Shown here piece after piece: positions 34,660 through 39,508 of a DNA stretch of 59,886 nucleotides. A program made the position numbers and the translations under genes. The stretch is from an archaeon. Its GTDB lineage: Archaea > Iainarchaeota > Iainarchaeia > Iainarchaeales > 0-14-0-20-34-12. Under the pieces are notes generated by a model, which did no database searches, was not told the DNA's origin, and worked only from the letters and a program-made list of their open reading frames with translations. Each line of letters opens with the position of its first letter. Position 1 is the first letter of the stretch. The DNA lies in the NCBI GenBank assembly GCA_038046645.1, contig JBBSVU010000005.1:1-59886 (forward strand), written 5' to 3'.

Positions 34660-34953
34660 TTGATTGGTGATTTGTTGAAGCAATATGTGATGAATGTTGA
34701 GCCAGCACTCATAAAAAAGGTTGATTTGCTTGTGAAACAATTAGGGGAGTATTCTTCAAGAAATGATTTTATGCGGGATGCGATTCGTTCAAAGATTGCC
34801 GAATTTGAAAGAGCCCAAATTCGGAAAGATTTGAAAAAGCTGGCTAAGTTAGGCCTAGAACGAGGCTGGGATGGGGAAATGCCAACTCAAGAACAAAGAG
34901 ATAAAGCATTAAAAGAATTTATTAAAGAGAAAGGATTCTCAGTCGAGATTTGA
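34660..34953 (+). CDS. Ribbon-helix-helix (CopG-like) protein
   Basis: YVMNVEPALIKKVD...YSSRNDFMRDAIR. The exact start is uncertain. Confidence 0.75.
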   Translation: MIGDLLKQYVMNVEPALIKKVDLLVKQLGEYSSRNDFMRDAIRSKIAEFERAQIRKDLKKLAKLGLERGWDGEMPTQEQRDKALKEFIKEKGFSVEI

Positions 34954-35355
34954 AGGCTCTTTTATTTCAATAACCTCTTTTGCTGATTTAAAATCTTTTA
35001 TGTTGAATGTTAAAAAGATTGAACATTTGCTTTTTAGGGCAAGCACTAAATGAAGCGCATCAGTTGTATGAATGTCTTTGAAATTATTTTTAGCATTTAT
35101 TAAATCTATTTCAGTAGCATCAATAATTTCATACTGAATTTTTTTCTTTGAGAGTAATTCCAACACTTCTTGTTTTGAGTAATAACCATTCTTTTCTACT
35201 TCTTTAAAGAACCATTCGGACAAAATAAGCACATAGTTCTTAGGGCATTTTCTGAAGAAATCTTCAACATCTTGTGCCATTAACTTGAATCCTTTGCCTA
35301 ATTCACTTTTAATAAATGCGATAAATATGTTTGAATCTAAATAAATCCTTTGCAT
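34939..35355 (-). CDS. PIN-domain (VapC-like) protein
   Basis: IYLDSNIFI, E in FFKEV, TDALHLVLA and FLTFNIKDF. Confidence 0.85.
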   Translation of the reverse strand: MQRIYLDSNIFIAFIKSELGKGFKLMAQDVEDFFRKCPKNYVLILSEWFFKEVEKNGYYSKQEVLELLSKKKIQYEIIDATEIDLINAKNNFKDIHTTDALHLVLALKSKCSIFLTFNIKDFKSAKEVIEIKEPSNLD

Positions 35356-35412
35356 CTCTAACCAACCCTCTTTTAAATATTCAACAGATAATTATTTTTA
35401 AAGTGATGCATT

Positions 35413-36099
35413 ATGAAATTAGTTTCATTGTTTTCCGGAGGCAAAGATTCTACTTTTGCAATCCATAAGGCAAGGCGGGAAGGCCATGAAATTGTTTGCC
35501 TGCTTACTATGCTTTCAGAAAATGATGCTTCCTACATGTTCCATACTTCAAACATAAAAATTGCAGAATACTCTGCCGCTTGTTTGGATTTGCCGATTAT
35601 TTTTGCAGAAACAAAAGGGGAGAAAGAAAAAGAGCTCTCTGATTTGAGTGAAATATTGCATGATTTGAAAAAATCTATCGGCATTGAAGGTGTTTTGACC
35701 GGTGCGATTAAAAGCAATTACCAGAAAGAAAGGGTTGACAATATTTGTGAAAAATTAAATCTCAAATCAGTAGCCCCCTTGTGGCACACGGATGAAAGAA
35801 AACTGATTGAAGAAATGCTTGCAGAAGGATTTCAGATAATCTTTGTTGGGGTTGCAGCTGCTGGCTTGGATGAATCCTGGCTTGGCCGGATGCTGGATGA
35901 AGATTCTTTGAAGGATTTGATTGCATTGAATAAAAAATATGGTATTTCTATTGTTGGAGAAGGCGGTGAGACGGAGAGTTTTGTCTTAGACTGTCCGATA
36001 TTTAAAAAGAGTATTATAGTTTTAGAGGGTAAAAAGAAGTGGAATGGTATACGTGGCGAGTACGAAATAATACGAATTGAACTTAAGGGTAAGAGATGA
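35413..36099 (+). CDS. dph6: Diphthine-ammonia ligase (Dph6, PP-loop), 3' end apparently replaced
   Basis: SLFSGGKDS, SYMFH, GAIKSNYQ, PLWH and GEGGE. Confidence 0.92.
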   Translation: MKLVSLFSGGKDSTFAIHKARREGHEIVCLLTMLSENDASYMFHTSNIKIAEYSAACLDLPIIFAETKGEKEKELSDLSEILHDLKKSIGIEGVLTGAIKSNYQKERVDNICEKLNLKSVAPLWHTDERKLIEEMLAEGFQIIFVGVAAAGLDESWLGRMLDEDSLKDLIALNKKYGISIVGEGGETESFVLDCPIFKKSIIVLEGKKKWNGIRGEYEIIRIELKGKR

Positions 36100-37282
36100 T
36101 TTCGTATCTGCCGTATTCTACTTTTTTTATAAGTCCTTTTTTGTAATATCTGCTCATAAATGCTCTCGGAGATACATATCGCATTTTTTTCATTTCTTTT
36201 ACAAAATCTTTAACATAGAAAAAGCCATCTTCTGAAATTGTTTTAATAATATCAAAAGCAGAATATTGTGGGTTGTGAGCATTAAAGTATTTCATTTTTT
36301 TGCAGATTTCTTGTTTACTCTTGCTAATAAAATTGATTTCTTTTATAAATTTATCAATGTTGTTTGCATATATCAATAAAGTCCATCTTGCGCTATAAAA
36401 GCCCCTTCTTATTGAGGTTTTATTTATTCTTAATGCTTCGAATGTTAACTTGCTTTGAATATTGAAATAATGCTTTAAAAGCAAGTGTTCTCCTATAAGA
36501 GTTATTGGTGCGTAAGTAATTAACTTTGAATATATATTGGGATAGTCTTGTTTTAATTTGGCTATATAAATTCTTTCGCTTTCTTTGTATTTTAATTTTT
36601 CATTAATTAATTCGCTTATGTCTACACTTCGACTAAGTTTAATGTATCTTTTATTTTGTTTTCTGTTAAGAATGGGGCTGCCTTCCGCATCGAAAGCAAT
36701 TCTTAAATATTCTTTAGCAAACTCTTTCTTTTTTAGTATTATTCTTGGGATGTGTTCTGATATTGGGATCAAAAATCGTACGTTTGTAGGAGCTCTTGAT
36801 CTGGCAAAACCTTTATTTTCTTTACAAATGATTTTTTGCCCAAAAGACTTACCTAATAAATTAATAAGGCTTTTTTTAAATATTCTGTGAAATTCTTTTT
36901 CAGGACAGTGTATAGAGAACTCTGTTCTAGTCGATCCTTCTGAAACCATTAAAGAGTAGAGTCGAACATAATCAGAATTATCTAGTTTTATTGGAAAAGA
37001 TATTTTTACTTTGTTATTTTTCTTAATTGAAATGCTTCTGATCTTTTTCTCAATTGATTTGTTTTTTCCAAATTCAGTAAGTAATCTTCCAAGTTTTATT
37101 CTATCTCTTGCTCTTTTAATCTTTTTAGGAAAAGGAACTACCTCTAAGAGAGTTCCTTTAGGTAAATTCCACCAATTTGTTTCGTTGACTTTTGGAGATT
37201 CTTTTAAATATGTTTTGAAATCCCAATCTTTAAGTAGCATATTAACAATAAATAAACAAAATTAATATAAACCTTTTTAGCA
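35965..37282. mobile_element. Homing-endonuclease cassette inserted in dph6, carrying a replacement 3' end
   Basis: Bounded by two colinear versions of the dph6 3' end (35965-36099 and 37283-37414). Encloses a LAGLIDADG-like ORF with its own TATA-like TTTATATT. Confidence 0.7.
36083..37240 (-). CDS. Free-standing double-motif LAGLIDADG homing-endonuclease-like protein
   Basis: Motif 1 LYSLMVSEGS, motif 2 YLRIAFDAEGS, C-terminal wHTH-like segment. No intein ends. Confidence 0.75.
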   Translation of the reverse strand: MLLKDWDFKTYLKESPKVNETNWWNLPKGTLLEVVPFPKKIKRARDRIKLGRLLTEFGKNKSIEKKIRSISIKKNNKVKISFPIKLDNSDYVRLYSLMVSEGSTRTEFSIHCPEKEFHRIFKKSLINLLGKSFGQKIICKENKGFARSRAPTNVRFLIPISEHIPRIILKKKEFAKEYLRIAFDAEGSPILNRKQNKRYIKLSRSVDISELINEKLKYKESERIYIAKLKQDYPNIYSKLITYAPITLIGEHLLLKHYFNIQSKLTFEALRINKTSIRRGFYSARWTLLIYANNIDKFIKEINFISKSKQEICKKMKYFNAHNPQYSAFDIIKTISEDGFFYVKDFVKEMKKMRYVSPRAFMSRYYKKGLIKKVEYGRYEIISYP

Positions 37283-37414
37283 GGGGAATTTGAAACATTT
37301 GTTTTGGATGCACCTTTATTTAAAAAACAGATAAAAATCGAAAAAGCCGAGAGAAAATAGGAAGGTTCCCGTGGCGAATTGATAATTAAAAAAGTAGGCT
37401 TGATGGAAAAATAA
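37283..37414 (+). pseudogene. Orphaned original 3' end of dph6
   Basis: Translates GEFETFVLDAPLFKKQIKIEKAERK*EGSRGELIIKKVGLMEK*. The TAG at 37358-37360 aligns with the Trp (TGG) of the expressed copy. Confidence 0.85.
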
Positions 37415-37678
37415 TTATTGTTTTTTTATCCTTCTTCTTATTCTTGTTGGCTCGAGCGTTTCAGCCCTTACCTGCCATTTTAGTATTAATTTTAAGAGCA
37501 TGCTGAATCCGTAAGTAACAATAATGACAAAGAATAATTCAAGCCATTTATCCGATCTCCAAAAATACTGTATCCAATCATTGCTTATGAATTTTACTTG
37601 AATGAGTATGAATACTACTATTAGAAAGCTTATTGCAAATAAAAATACCTTCCATAACAGTTCTTTGGTTTCTCCCAT
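37415..37678 (-). CDS. Small two-TM membrane protein
   Basis: Two hydrophobic helices and a basic C-tail. Lies directly downstream of lig. Confidence 0.65.
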   Translation of the reverse strand: MGETKELLWKVFLFAISFLIVVFILIQVKFISNDWIQYFWRSDKWLELFFVIIVTYGFSMLLKLILKWQVRAETLEPTRIRRRIKKQ

Positions 37679-37684
37679 ATTGCT

Positions 37685-39508
37685 TCATTCTCCTTTAACG
37701 TGTTTCTGCAAAGAATACATCTTTTTTATCTCTTCAACAGTTGTTGCATCTTCAGGTTTTTTATCAGTCCTTAATTTTACCATGCGCGGGAACCTTAAAG
37801 CTAAACCTTCATCCCCTTTTTTTGCGCATGCATGTATAGGGCTTTTAGTTATCTCATCTGCATTTATCTCAATCACATATTTTGGCATTACCCACACATC
37901 TGTTTCCAGTTCTGAAATATAATTGTTAGGCTTTTTATTAACCTTTATGCTGCCTAGCATTTCATTTAATTCTGACAATTGCTGTTCGCTTAACCCAGTG
38001 CCAATCTTTGCAATGCTTTCAAATCTGTCTTTTTCTTTGTTATATACGCCAACAAGCAATGCGCCTAGCCCAAATTGTGTTCTTTGCCCTCTCCCTTTGT
38101 AATAACCTAAAATTAAAGTGTCAATTGTGTCAGATAATTCTCCCTGATAAGACCTTTTCAGCTTTATCCATGAAAATTTCCTGGCTCCAGCGATATATTT
38201 TGAATTCAGATCCTTTGCAATTATTCCTTCTAACCCCTTTTCAACACATTCATCAAAGTATTCTGTTATCCTTTTAGGGTCATCAGTGATTATTCCTTCA
38301 ATCCTGCTAATTGAATTCCCTTCTTTTATGAGTTTCCCGAGCAGATTGTTCCTTTCCGTAAATTTTAAATCCATCACATTTTTCCCATCAACAAACATTA
38401 CATCAAAAACAAATAATTTAAGTGGGTATCTCTTAGAAAAATCCTTTATATCGTATTTTCTCTTCCTTTGAATTGTTACCTGAAAAGAATAAAATTCATT
38501 TGTTTCCTCATTTATTGCAACAGCTTCTCCCTCAAATATTGCCTGCTTTGCATTTATTTTCTCCTGCACAGCTTTTACAATTTCCGGAAACATTGGAGTC
38601 ATTTCTTCCTGGTTTCTGCTGAATATCGCAACTTTATCTTTATCCTTGTGGATCTGCATCCTGAATCCATCAATTTTCGGTTCAATTGAGCATTTCCCGA
38701 TTTTCTTTACAATCTCTTCAGCATTTTCCAAGCGTTCTGCCAATGTCGGCCTTATGGGAATCCCTAAGTCAATATCTATTGCATCCAGCCCTTTCAATCC
38801 CTGTTCTTTTAGTTTGCAAGAAATGCCCCCTAAATCAGAAAATATGTTGTATTTTTCCTCAATCTTTTCCCTTAATTTAAATTTCATGTGCTTTCTAGCT
38901 TCTTCCTCTGTTTTATATTCTGCAAGCATTTCTTTGTGCAATTTATTTTCTTTTTTTATGAATTCATCAAGGTAATTTAAAGATAGAGAATCCATTATTG
39001 TTGGATCCCCTGATCCTAACCTTAATTTTCCTATTGGAATCCTTACTATGAATTTTGCTTCAATAGGGTTTGCGGAATTTAAAAGTTCTGCAAGCAGTTT
39101 TATCTTTGTTTCCTGCGATCCAGGCCCGGAAGATTTTGAAATTTTAATCAAATTGTCAAATACTTTTGTTATTGTTAATTGTTCAGAGAACAATGCCTTC
39201 TGTTTCTTTTTTTTGGAAAGCATTTCAGCCACTAATCCCAAATCGCCTTTTTCCTTGTAAATCTTTTCAACATCATTTTCTTTATAACCCGTAACTGTTG
39301 CAATTGCCTTTATTACAAATTTTTCCCCCATCCCCACTTCCAAATTTTTATACTGCGGAGCTATTCTTCCTTGGCACAAATAAATTAGCTTTTCAATTTC
39401 TTTGGTTTCGGTCTTTTCAAAAAGTTCAGCTAAAATATCGGTCATTTCCAAGCGTGAGCTTTTCTCCTCAATTCTGTTGAAATAATCCGCCACATTCTGA
39501 AAGAGCAT
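37685..39508 (-). CDS. lig: ATP-dependent DNA ligase
   Basis: Motif I EPKIDGFR, FEGE, FDVM, EGIIAK, WIKLKR and ALRFPR. Confidence 0.97.
   Translation of the reverse strand: MLFQNVADYFNRIEEKSSRLEMTDILAELFEKTETKEIEKLIYLCQGRIAPQYKNLEVGMGEKFVIKAIATVTGYKENDVEKIYKEKGDLGLVAEMLSKKKKQKALFSEQLTITKVFDNLIKISKSSGPGSQETKIKLLAELLNSANPIEAKFIVRIPIGKLRLGSGDPTIMDSLSLNYLDEFIKKENKLHKEMLAEYKTEEEARKHMKFKLREKIEEKYNIFSDLGGISCKLKEQGLKGLDAIDIDLGIPIRPTLAERLENAEEIVKKIGKCSIEPKIDGFRMQIHKDKDKVAIFSRNQEEMTPMFPEIVKAVQEKINAKQAIFEGEAVAINEETNEFYSFQVTIQRKRKYDIKDFSKRYPLKLFVFDVMFVDGKNVMDLKFTERNNLLGKLIKEGNSISRIEGIITDDPKRITEYFDECVEKGLEGIIAKDLNSKYIAGARKFSWIKLKRSYQGELSDTIDTLILGYYKGRGQRTQFGLGALLVGVYNKEKDRFESIAKIGTGLSEQQLSELNEMLGSIKVNKKPNNYISELETDVWVMPKYVIEINADEITKSPIHACAKKGDEGLALRFPRMVKLRTDKKPEDATTVEEIKKMYSLQKHVKGE

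What the first reader, a model, noticed from the sequence alone, without database searches (positions are those of the whole stretch)
35965..37414. LAGLIDADG cassette that inserts into dph6 and supplies a recoded replacement 3' end, stranding the original 3' end
Seen: the expressed dph6 ends GETESFVLDCPIFKKSIIVLEGKKKWNGIRGEYEIIRIELKGKR* (35965-36099). About 1.3 kb downstream, in unannotated intergenic DNA, 37283-37414 translates GEFETFVLDAPLFKKQIKIEKAERK*EGSRGELIIKKVGLMEK*. The two align without gaps, and the TAG sits exactly on the Trp codon. Between them is one antisense free-standing ORF with two LAGLIDADG-like motifs and its own TATA-like box. The stranded copy has the more canonical GGE-F-E-T-FVLDAPLF motif. 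Established: free-standing homing endonucleases spread by cutting a conserved site in a neighbouring gene and co-converting a resistant allele. Inference: this is an intron-less, intein-less, integrase-less element that targets the conserved GEGGE codons. It keeps the host gene intact by carrying a diverged C-terminal exon, which also immunises the site against recutting. I do not know of this arrangement being described for an archaeal housekeeping gene.
Basis: partly seen in the sequence, partly recalled or inferred. Interest (0 to 1): 0.9.

Follow-up and report, generated by a model that had tools for sequence, protein, structure and literature searches.

The report
Homing-endonuclease cassette replacing archaeal dph6 tail
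A selfish 1.3-kb DNA cassette has inserted into the diphthamide-synthesis gene dph6 of a groundwater DPANN archaeon, bringing a DNA-cutting-enzyme gene and a foreign replacement gene end and leaving the original end stranded downstream; this lifestyle is published for fungal mitochondria, and I found no published archaeal case.

Summary
dph6 (35413-36099) is a hybrid gene. Codons 1-184 are native. Codons 185-228 (35965-36099) are foreign. The native 3' end lies stranded at 37283-37414, where one TGG has become TAG.

The nearest relative (L063) has an empty site with the same neighbouring genes. Its dph6 tail is 89% identical in DNA to the stranded tail and 53% to the expressed tail. The 5' part of the gene is 80-81% identical.

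The insert is 1318 bp. It holds the replacement tail, an antisense 385-aa ORF overlapping that tail by 17 nt, and a TATA-like promoter. The ORF folds with high confidence (pLDDT 92) as a two-motif LAGLIDADG endonuclease with both acidic residues conserved.

All 20 distinct related loci examined carry the same arrangement at the same dph6 codon. Carrier hosts are scattered on the dph6 tree, and only 1 of 215 genomes in the window's phylum has the gene. A second lineage (L005) repeats the pattern and adds a co-conversion tract of about 60 codons. Two close relatives without the endonuclease gene carry the cassette-type patch, which looks like a scar.

Five independent assemblies exclude mis-assembly. 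The closest known analogue is the fungal mitochondrial mORF gene hybrid (Allomyces atp6, Glomus). Cleavage and expression remain untested.

The parts
35413..35964 (+). Native 5' part of dph6 (codons 1-184, up to ...VGEG)
   Evidence: It is 80-81% identical in DNA to the empty-site orthologue L063. In the N-part tree the window groups with P0039, P0040 and P0041 at 100/99 support.
35965..36099 (+). Cassette-borne foreign replacement 3' end of dph6 (44 codons plus stop, GETESFVLDCPIF...GKR*). It is in frame and completes the Dph6 domain.
   Evidence: It is only 53% (ungapped) or 56% identical in DNA to the L063 tail. The best protein match to any tail is 63%, to P0042. The Pfam profile is covered over positions 1-217 of 219. 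The boundary is ambiguous by 6 nt (GGNGAR is shared by both tails).
36083..37240 (-). Free-standing homing endonuclease gene (385 aa). It has an N-terminal domain, a two-motif LAGLIDADG core and a C-terminal winged helix. Its 3' end overlaps the dph6 stop region by 17 nt.
   Evidence: The AF2 model has pLDDT 91.9. All top Foldseek PDB hits are LAGLIDADG proteins: WhiA, PI-PfuI, PI-SceI, TliVMA, I-Tsp061I and I-DmoI, the last with target-normalised TM about 0.6. E101/G102 and E186/G187 lie at the ends of helices 89-101 and 172-186 and are invariant or nearly so across 34 homologues. Family member P0037 passes the Pfam LAGLIDADG_3 cut-off. GC is 28.5% against 35.1% for the window.
37241..37282 (-). 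Right end of the cassette: the endonuclease gene's promoter region, with a TATA-like TTTATATTAA at 37262-37271 on the minus strand
   Evidence: Read directly from the sequence. Homologous loci carry TTTAAATA at the same distance, and in most of them the stranded remnant starts 39-54 nt upstream of the ATG. The promoter function is inferred.
37283..37414 (+). Stranded native 3' end of dph6 (43 codons plus stop), with TGG changed to TAG at 37358-37360
   Evidence: It is 89.4% identical in DNA and 88% in protein to the tail of the intact dph6 of L063/P0039. It ends immediately before the stop of the conserved 87-aa neighbour ORF; in the empty allele three bases separate them.
37415..39508 (-). 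Conserved right flank: the 87-aa ORF (37415-37678) and the DNA ligase gene (37685-39508), which anchor the synteny with the empty site
   Evidence: L063 and L064 have the order GatD, dph6, an 84-86-aa ORF, DNA ligase. The ligase is 87.8% and GatD 87.7% identical in DNA to L063.

Best explanation
This is a mobile homing-endonuclease cassette of the mORF gene-hybrid type, 1318 bp long (35965-37282), lodged in dph6 at the Gly184/Glu185 codons.

The cassette has three parts:
- a foreign, recoded copy of the last 44 dph6 codons, fused in frame to the host's own 5' part so that Dph6 stays complete;
- an antisense LAGLIDADG endonuclease gene whose last codons overlap that tail, which locks the two together physically;
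- the endonuclease gene's own promoter.

The host's original tail is pushed downstream, is no longer joined to the gene, and has begun to decay (one stop codon).

Shown by sequence comparison: the insertion, the foreign origin of the expressed tail, the native origin of the stranded tail, the fold and conserved active-site residues of the ORF, recurrence at the same codon in many unrelated hosts, a co-conversion tract in one host, and related alleles that are empty or scarred.

Inferred mechanism: the enzyme cuts the intact ...GGN GAR TTY/TAY GAR ACN... site of a naive dph6. The break is repaired by homologous recombination from a cassette-bearing allele. The dph6 5' region serves as the left homology arm and the donor's stranded remnant as the right arm. 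Both new junctions are immune: the left because the codons just 3' of the junction are recoded (F/Y to A or T), the right because the left half-site is replaced by the cassette end. The cassette can later be lost by recombination between the two tail copies, leaving a resistant patch.
For: 1. Empty site. L063 (dph6 75% aa identical) has GatD, dph6, an 86-aa ORF and ligase, with no insert. DNA identity to L063 is 81% for the N-part, 89.4% for the stranded tail, 53-56% for the expressed tail and about 88% for the flanking genes.
2. Trees. The N-part and the stranded tail both place the window next to P0039. The expressed tail does not.
3. Fold. pLDDT is 91.9, all top PDB matches are LAGLIDADG enzymes, and the acidic residues are conserved.
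4. Recurrence. In all 20 distinct loci holding a homologue, the gene is convergent to dph6 and overlaps its 3' end by 9-32 nt. In 14 of 19 loci a GGNGAR-NNN-GAAAC remnant lies upstream of the ATG, at 39-54 nt in 12 of them. Five of the remnants are full-length open tails.
5. Patchy spread. Only 1 of 215 genomes of the window's phylum has the gene, and none of 60 same-order relatives has a full-length copy. There are at least 10 changes of state on the dph6 N-part tree, and monophyly of carriers is rejected (AU p 0.0002).
6. Site recoding. 14 of 18 carrier alleles lack the F/Y/I/L residue after GGE (13 have A, the window has T), against 2 of 40 alleles without the endonuclease gene.
7. Second lineage, L005. 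Residues 1-125 are 83-87% identical to short-tail natives. Residues 140-200 are 40-50% identical to them but 87-93% identical to a carrier-class allele. The stranded remnant matches the native tail of P0180 at 37 of 38 residues.
8. Scars. P0040 and P0041 have no endonuclease gene but carry GETESFVLDCP followed by a native-type tail.
9. No RNA family, integrase or terminal inverted repeats are present.
10. Five independent assemblies are identical.
Against: - No cleavage, expression or transfer was tested.
- The window's ORF itself gets no Pfam or PDB sequence hit. The assignment rests on the predicted fold, the motifs and one family member that passes the Pfam cut-off.
- Three carrier alleles (L013, L014, L023) keep a canonical GE(F/Y)E(T/S) protein motif, so any immunity there must lie at the DNA level or the enzyme is inactive.
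- Averaged over carriers, expressed tails are no more alike than the N-parts (47% against 49%), so co-travel of tail and endonuclease is shown case by case, not globally.
- The closest endonuclease homologue is only about 50% identical, so no donor is identified.
- The top structural hit, WhiA, is a non-nuclease LAGLIDADG protein.
Confidence: 0.85

Rival explanations
1. The cassette arrived as described but is now a fossil. The ORF has been domesticated as a DNA-binding protein (WhiA-like) or as an antisense partner of dph6, and it no longer drives homing.
For: The best structural match is WhiA, a LAGLIDADG-plus-HTH regulator. The family is well conserved in length and sequence, with 40-50% identity and many invariant positions. 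The convergent overlap with dph6 is universal.
Against: Both catalytic acidic residues are conserved. The distribution is extremely patchy and polyphyletic. Fresh, still-open native remnants in several hosts and a recent co-conversion tract point to recent invasions. Degenerate copies also exist (L023), as expected for a selfish element.
Confidence: 0.08
2. The cassette spreads by ordinary horizontal transfer and homologous recombination of a dph6 region. The endonuclease does not create the break; it is a passenger.
For: No cleavage data exist. The flanking homology alone could support recombination.
Against: The junction falls at the same codon in about 20 loci from different phyla. The codons next to the junction are recoded in most carriers. 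The nuclease gene and the tail overlap physically. All of this is expected for nuclease-driven homing and not for random recombination.
Confidence: 0.05
3. A local tandem duplication of the dph6 3' end, followed by insertion of an unrelated ORF. On this view the expressed tail is the vertically inherited one.
For: The two tails are direct repeats in register.
Against: The stranded tail, not the expressed one, matches the orthologue (89% against 53%). The two tails are only about 46% identical in protein. The same structure recurs in unrelated hosts, some with tails of a different type (L005, L017 and L020: a short NSW-type remnant against a long expressed tail).
Confidence: 0.01
4. An assembly chimera that joins two strains.
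For: The window comes from a metagenome-assembled genome.
Against: Five contigs from five separate assemblies or runs show the same 2.5 kb with 0-2 mismatches.
Confidence: 0.01

Closest known systems
Fungal mitochondrial mobile endonuclease ORFs (mORFs) that create gene hybrids: Allomyces macrogynus atp6; Glomus sp. atp6, atp9, cox2 and nad3; Rhizopus atp9; Mortierella cox2 (PMC3630166 and the works it cites)
   Same: An endonuclease ORF is inserted in the 3' part of a conserved gene and carries a foreign C-terminal segment in frame with the host 5' part. The native C-terminus is displaced downstream and is much closer to that of the nearest relative than the inserted one is. In Glomus the figures are 91-98% against 64-81%; here they are 89% against 53%. 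In both cases there is no intron or intein.
   Different: The host here is an archaeal chromosome and the target is dph6, a gene that modifies a translation factor. The endonuclease gene is antisense and its 3' end overlaps the replacement tail, whereas the fungal ORFs described in PMC3630166 are transcribed with the hybrid gene, and two of the four are in frame with it. The enzyme is a new three-domain family. Spread crosses archaeal phyla.
Free-standing homing endonucleases of phages and intronless homing (T4 SegF, SegG and MobE; cyanophage F-CphI, PMC6083498). Named from my own knowledge.
   Same: A free-standing nuclease gene next to the gene it targets, spreading by break repair with co-conversion of flanking markers.
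   Different: Those genes lie between genes or split them. They do not supply a replacement gene end or leave a stranded duplicate, and they belong to the GIY-YIG, HNH or EndoVII families rather than LAGLIDADG.
Archaeal monomeric LAGLIDADG enzymes I-DmoI and I-Tsp061I (rRNA introns) and PI-PfuI/TliVMA (inteins)
   Same: The same two-motif single-chain core fold, with target-normalised TM 0.57-0.62, and acidic residues at the ends of both motif helices.
   Different: Those enzymes are embedded in a splicing element. This one is free-standing, has about 85 extra N-terminal residues and a C-terminal winged helix of about 65 residues, and shares only 10-14% sequence identity with them.
WhiA (3hyi)
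   Same: A LAGLIDADG scaffold followed by a helix-turn-helix domain. It is the top Foldseek hit (E 7e-6).
   Different: WhiA is a vertically inherited bacterial regulator that lacks the catalytic residues. This family keeps them and is patchily distributed at a single insertion site.

Membership tests
LAGLIDADG homing endonucleases (two-motif, monomeric) | Two LAGLIDADG helices, each ending in an acidic residue followed by Gly | tested here: met
   The motifs are LYSLMVSE101G and LRIAFDAE186G. They lie at the ends of helices 89-101 and 172-186. E101 is at least 90% conserved; G102, E186 and G187 are invariant in 34 sequences.
LAGLIDADG homing endonucleases (two-motif, monomeric) | Paired alpha-beta-beta-alpha-beta-beta-alpha core fold | tested here: met
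   The model has pLDDT 91.9. The eight PDB hits with E below 1e-3 are all LAGLIDADG proteins.
LAGLIDADG homing endonucleases (two-motif, monomeric) | Sequence match to a curated family model above its threshold | tested here: inconclusive
   The window's protein has no Pfam, NCBIfam or PDB sequence hit. Family member P0037 scores 31.7 bits on PF14528, whose cut-off is 22.5.
LAGLIDADG homing endonucleases (two-motif, monomeric) | Site-specific double-strand cleavage of the allele that lacks the element | not testable with these tools
   This needs a purified protein and a cleavage assay.
mORF-type gene-hybrid cassette | Endonuclease ORF plus a foreign C-terminal segment inserted in frame into the 3' part of a host gene | tested here: met
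   The hybrid covers the whole Dph6 profile.
mORF-type gene-hybrid cassette | The native C-terminus is displaced downstream and is closer to relatives than the inserted one | tested here: met
   DNA identity to L063 is 89.4% against 53%. The pattern is repeated in L005, where the remnant matches P0180 at 37 of 38 residues.
mORF-type gene-hybrid cassette | An empty allele exists in related genomes at the same locus | tested here: met
   L063 is empty. L064 and L067 lack the endonuclease gene but are patched. All three were checked.
mORF-type gene-hybrid cassette | The hybrid gene is expressed and the native tail is not | not tested
Group I/II intron or intein | A ribozyme core or in-frame protein-splicing blocks around the endonuclease | tested here: not met
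   There is no Rfam match at E up to 1 in 35300-37800. The ORF is antisense to dph6 and has its own start and stop codons.
Insertion sequence or integrase-borne island | A transposase or integrase, with terminal inverted repeats or att duplication | tested here: not met
   The insert holds a single ORF, which has a LAGLIDADG fold. No terminal inverted repeats were found.

The most novel reading that the evidence does not exclude
This would be an actively homing, intron-free and intein-free LAGLIDADG cassette that moves between DPANN phyla and invades a chromosomal housekeeping gene by carrying its own recoded gene end. All stages of the homing cycle (empty, occupied, scarred-resistant) would be preserved among near relatives. 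The first roughly 20 nt of the 'stranded' remnant (GGGGAATTTGAAACATTTGT, identical in the window, L005 and L017) would be part of the element, serving as its right homology arm and possibly as an operator for the endonuclease next to its own promoter. Together with this scan's earlier notes on sod and top6A, it would point to a general class of archaeal mobile elements that I could not find described.
Probability: 0.5. Interest if true: 0.72.

Novelty: new variant of a known kind. Interest (0 to 1): 0.62.

Why it matters
- It shows that the third way for a homing endonuclease to enter a coding gene without harming it works in archaeal chromosomes and across phyla. That way is to bring a replacement gene end, instead of an intron or an intein, and it has so far been documented in fungal mitochondria.
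- It explains hybrid, phylogenetically discordant 3' ends, and tracts up to about 100 codons long, in a conserved marker-like gene. This matters for gene trees and for annotating metagenome-assembled genomes. The endonuclease gene is annotated only as hypothetical and the remnant is not annotated at all.
- It offers a new three-domain LAGLIDADG scaffold with a target that can be read from natural empty sites, so cleavage tests can be set up directly.
- The set of empty, occupied and scarred alleles in near relatives is a natural system for studying the homing cycle in DPANN archaea, whose routes of DNA exchange are poorly known.

Tried and rejected
- Pfam, NCBIfam and PDB sequence searches gave nothing significant for the window's ORF, either alone or as a profile. 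The assignment needed structure prediction and Foldseek.
I used independent assemblies instead.
- I looked for a global signal that expressed tails of carriers are more alike than their N-parts. There is none: 47% against 49%. The evidence is case by case (the window and L005).
- I searched the window's own genome for further cassettes. The genome holds one copy of this family. Six other free-standing LAGLIDADG_3 ORFs show no flank-to-flank duplication at E below 1e-3, while the dph6 locus served as a positive control. Short remnants would have been missed.
- I looked up distant sister families. P0313 is not on record. P0325 lies beside RTC, not dph6, and I did not follow it.
- Literature searches for an archaeal or DPANN precedent found none in the held library. 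Absence from that library does not prove absence from the literature.
- Tandem duplication, mis-assembly, intron, intein and IS or integrase readings were rejected (see the rival explanations and membership tests).
Full report
**Observation**

The window holds dph6 at 35413-36099 (+), 228 aa. It matches Pfam Diphthami_syn_2 at E 2e-71 over profile positions 1-217 of 219, and NCBIfam TIGR03679 Dph6_archaeal at 287 bits. An antisense ORF of 385 aa lies at 36083-37240. At 37283-37414 an unannotated stretch translates as a second Dph6 C-terminus with one internal TAG. The two tails align without gaps. I count 20 of 43 residues by hand; tblastx of the two flanks gives 46.5% and E 3e-8. The DNA repeat in register has a spacing of 1318 nt.

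**Which tail is native**

The closest dph6 in 5.8 billion proteins is P0039, at 75% aa identity. Its contig L063 has the gene order GatD, dph6, an 86-aa ORF and DNA ligase, with nothing inserted. The window has the same order, plus the insert and a separate RHH-PIN pair.

DNA identity between the window and L063:

| Region | Identity |
|---|---|
| GatD | 87.7% |
| dph6 codons 1-184 | 80-81% |
| Stranded tail | 89.4% |
| Expressed tail | 53% ungapped, 56% gapped |
| DNA ligase | 87.8% |

Similarity continues past the stop codon of the stranded tail. L063 reads TGG where the window reads TAG.

In a maximum-likelihood tree of the N-terminal part, the window groups with P0039, P0040 and P0041 (100/99) and is sister to P0039. 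In the tail tree the stranded tail is nearest to P0039 (88%, path 0.14). The expressed tail sits on a long branch, with a best identity of 63% to P0042.

So the stranded copy is the vertically inherited end and the expressed one is foreign. The insert is 35965-37282, 1318 bp. Its edges are ambiguous by the 6 nt GGNGAR that both tails share.

**What the ORF is**

Sequence searches alone gave nothing for the window's protein. It does have 36 homologues at 37-51% identity in DPANN metagenomes and MAGs labelled Nanoarchaeota, Woesearchaeota and Aenigmatarchaeota.

The alignment shows LYSLMxSEGS and IAFEAEGSPI with invariant or nearly invariant E-G pairs. One member passes the Pfam LAGLIDADG_3 cut-off. 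AlphaFold2 with this alignment gives pLDDT 91.9 and pTM 0.84. All eight Foldseek PDB hits below E 1e-3 are LAGLIDADG proteins: WhiA, the TliVMA, PI-PfuI and PI-SceI inteins, I-Tsp061I and I-DmoI.

The two acidic residues sit at the C-terminal ends of helices 89-101 and 172-186, where LAGLIDADG active sites lie. About 85 N-terminal residues and a C-terminal winged-helix-like domain are extra. There is no Rfam family in the region, no terminal inverted repeats and no second ORF. The ORF's GC content is 28.5%, against 35.1% for the window.

**Recurrence**

- In every locus where a homologue could be read with its context, the gene is convergent to dph6 and overlaps its 3' end by 9-32 nt. That is 20 distinct loci.
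- The genes on the other side differ from locus to locus.
- In 14 of 19 loci a remnant beginning GGNGAR-(TTT/TAC/CTT)-GAAAC lies upstream of the endonuclease ATG. In 12 of these it starts 39-54 nt upstream.
- Five remnants (L005, L009, L016, L017, L020) are full-length and still open. Eight are cut down to 6-11 codons. Three loci (L010, L019, L022) show none. In L013 and L015 only tblastn finds one (diverged, or about 1 kb upstream).
- In L005, L017 and L020 the remnant is of a short '...NSW...' tail type, while the expressed tail is of the long type. The two therefore cannot be local duplicates.

**Second worked example**

L005's Dph6 (P0158) is 83-87% identical over residues 1-125 to relatives with short tails (P0180, P0188; their gene context was not checked). 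Over residues 140-200 it is only 40-50% identical to them but 87-93% identical to a carrier-class allele (P0159). Its stranded remnant matches the native tail of P0180 at 37 of 38 residues. This is the signature of homing with a co-conversion tract of about 60 codons upstream of the site.

**Distribution**

- The window's genome has a single copy.
- None of 60 relatives in the same order has a full-length copy. The only hits are weak and partial and lie inside longer ORFs of 352-1496 aa, most over 1000 aa; these could be intein nuclease domains, which I did not check.
- Only 1 of 215 genomes of its phylum has it at E below 1e-20.
- Across 185,579 species genomes, 17 loci were found.
- A profile search of 1.84 billion cluster representatives finds a small family of about 12 full-length clusters.
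- On the dph6 N-part tree, carriers are interspersed with non-carriers. There are at least 10 state changes, and monophyly of carriers is rejected (AU p 0.0002). The non-carrier sample is biased towards the window's order. Co-conversion would, if anything, pull carriers together.

**Site recoding and scars**

Of 40 alleles without the endonuclease gene, 38 read GE(G/S)GE[FYIL]E[ST]. Of 18 carrier alleles, 13 have Ala and the window has Thr at the hydrophobic position. Twelve of these read FEGGEAE[TS], one reads FEGGQADT and the window reads GEGGETES.

The two exceptions among alleles without the endonuclease gene are P0040 and P0041. They are the window's next-closest relatives (74% and 70%) and have empty-site synteny. 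They carry the window's cassette-type patch GETESFVLDCP(I/L)FKK: over these 35 nt I count by eye 32-33 identities in the alignment, against 73-76% for the rest of the gene. A native-type tail follows the patch.

The simplest reading is loss of the cassette by recombination between the two tail copies near the shared ATTTAAAAA, or conversion without uptake of the endonuclease gene. Either would leave a resistant allele. I cannot exclude that the patch is an older polymorphism from which the cassette tail was built.

**Artefact check**

Five contigs from five assemblies or runs (ERZ1292621, ERZ1292620, ERR3858129, ERR3858128, SRR32696700) reproduce the 2.5 kb across both junctions with 0-2 mismatches.

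**Mechanism: what is shown and what is inferred**

Shown: the insertion, the origin of each tail, the fold, the recurrence, the co-conversion tract and the three allele states.

Inferred from the established biology of LAGLIDADG homing and of mORF elements:
- the enzyme cuts the intact GGN GAR TTY GAR ACN site;
- repair copies the cassette from a carrier allele;
- the recoded left junction and the disrupted right junction are immune;
- the donor's remnant supplies the right homology arm, which explains why each new host keeps most of its own tail as a fresh remnant.

How DNA moves between DPANN cells is unknown.

**Comparison with what is known**

The architecture matches the mORF gene hybrids of fungal mitochondria. 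PMC3630166 describes Glomus atp6, atp9, cox2 and nad3 with inserted C-termini carried by LAGLIDADG or GIY-YIG ORFs. There the native C-termini are 91-98% identical to a close relative and the inserted ones 64-81%. The paper cites the original Allomyces macrogynus atp6 case and cases in Rhizopus and Mortierella.

The differences here are:
- an archaeal chromosome;
- a new target gene;
- an antisense nuclease gene that overlaps the tail;
- a new three-domain enzyme family;
- spread across phyla.

I found no paper describing this in archaea. Earlier notes of this scan describe similar cassettes in archaeal sod and top6A. Those are unchecked leads, not evidence.

**Verdict**

It is a new variant of a known kind. 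Confidence in the structural account is high. Confidence in nuclease-driven homing is good, but it has not been tested at the bench.

Noticed in passing
window 34660-35355: An RHH (34660-34953, +) and PIN (34939-35355, -) pair lies between GatD and dph6. L063 and L064 have only about 55-130 nt there. This looks like a separate small insertion next to the cassette. L067 also has an RHH_8 gene upstream of dph6.
   Followed up: partly
genome G000: C1:70941-72143, C1:76448-77458, C6:55855-56658, C6:120302-121267, C17:25690-26604, C24:11757-12905: The 1.17-Mb genome holds six further LAGLIDADG_3 hits in open frames of 267-400 aa (free-standing size). About seven more loci lie inside open frames of 836-1626 aa and may be inteins. 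No flank-to-flank duplication was seen around the six at E below 1e-3, but short remnants would be missed.
   Followed up: partly
L074 3001-4254: A distant sister of the endonuclease family (P0325, 417 aa, E 2e-12 to the profile) lies between a Pyr_excise gene and an RNA 3'-phosphate cyclase gene (RTC). It runs in the same direction as RTC and overlaps the first 23 nt of the called RTC gene. It may be a cassette at a different target.
   Followed up: no
L001 5174-7291; L008; L019; many relatives (open frames of about 700 aa): In many DPANN genomes Dph6 is the C-terminal domain of a fusion of about 700 aa. In L001 the N-terminal part matches GATase and asparagine synthase. The endonuclease cassette invades these fused genes too.
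   Followed up: no
window 37283-37302; L005 and L017 remnants: The first 20 nt of the stranded remnant (GGGGAATTTGAAACATTTGT) are identical in the window, L005 and L017, which are very different hosts. The window's nearest relative L063 differs at three of these positions. This hints that the start of the remnant travels with the cassette.
   Followed up: partly
L014 1640-1699 and 1717-2208: Besides a short remnant 41 nt from the endonuclease ATG, L014 has a second dph6-tail-like piece (GAPAESFVLDCPLFKRPLKV) about 600 nt further on, behind a 163-aa gene. It could be the trace of an older event.
   Followed up: no
L015 2296-4128: The endonuclease reading frame is open for 610 codons. Its upstream part carries an HTH_3 domain (residues 58-105). 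This is either a fusion or an unrecognised upstream gene in the same frame. The dph6 remnant lies about 1 kb upstream here.
   Followed up: no
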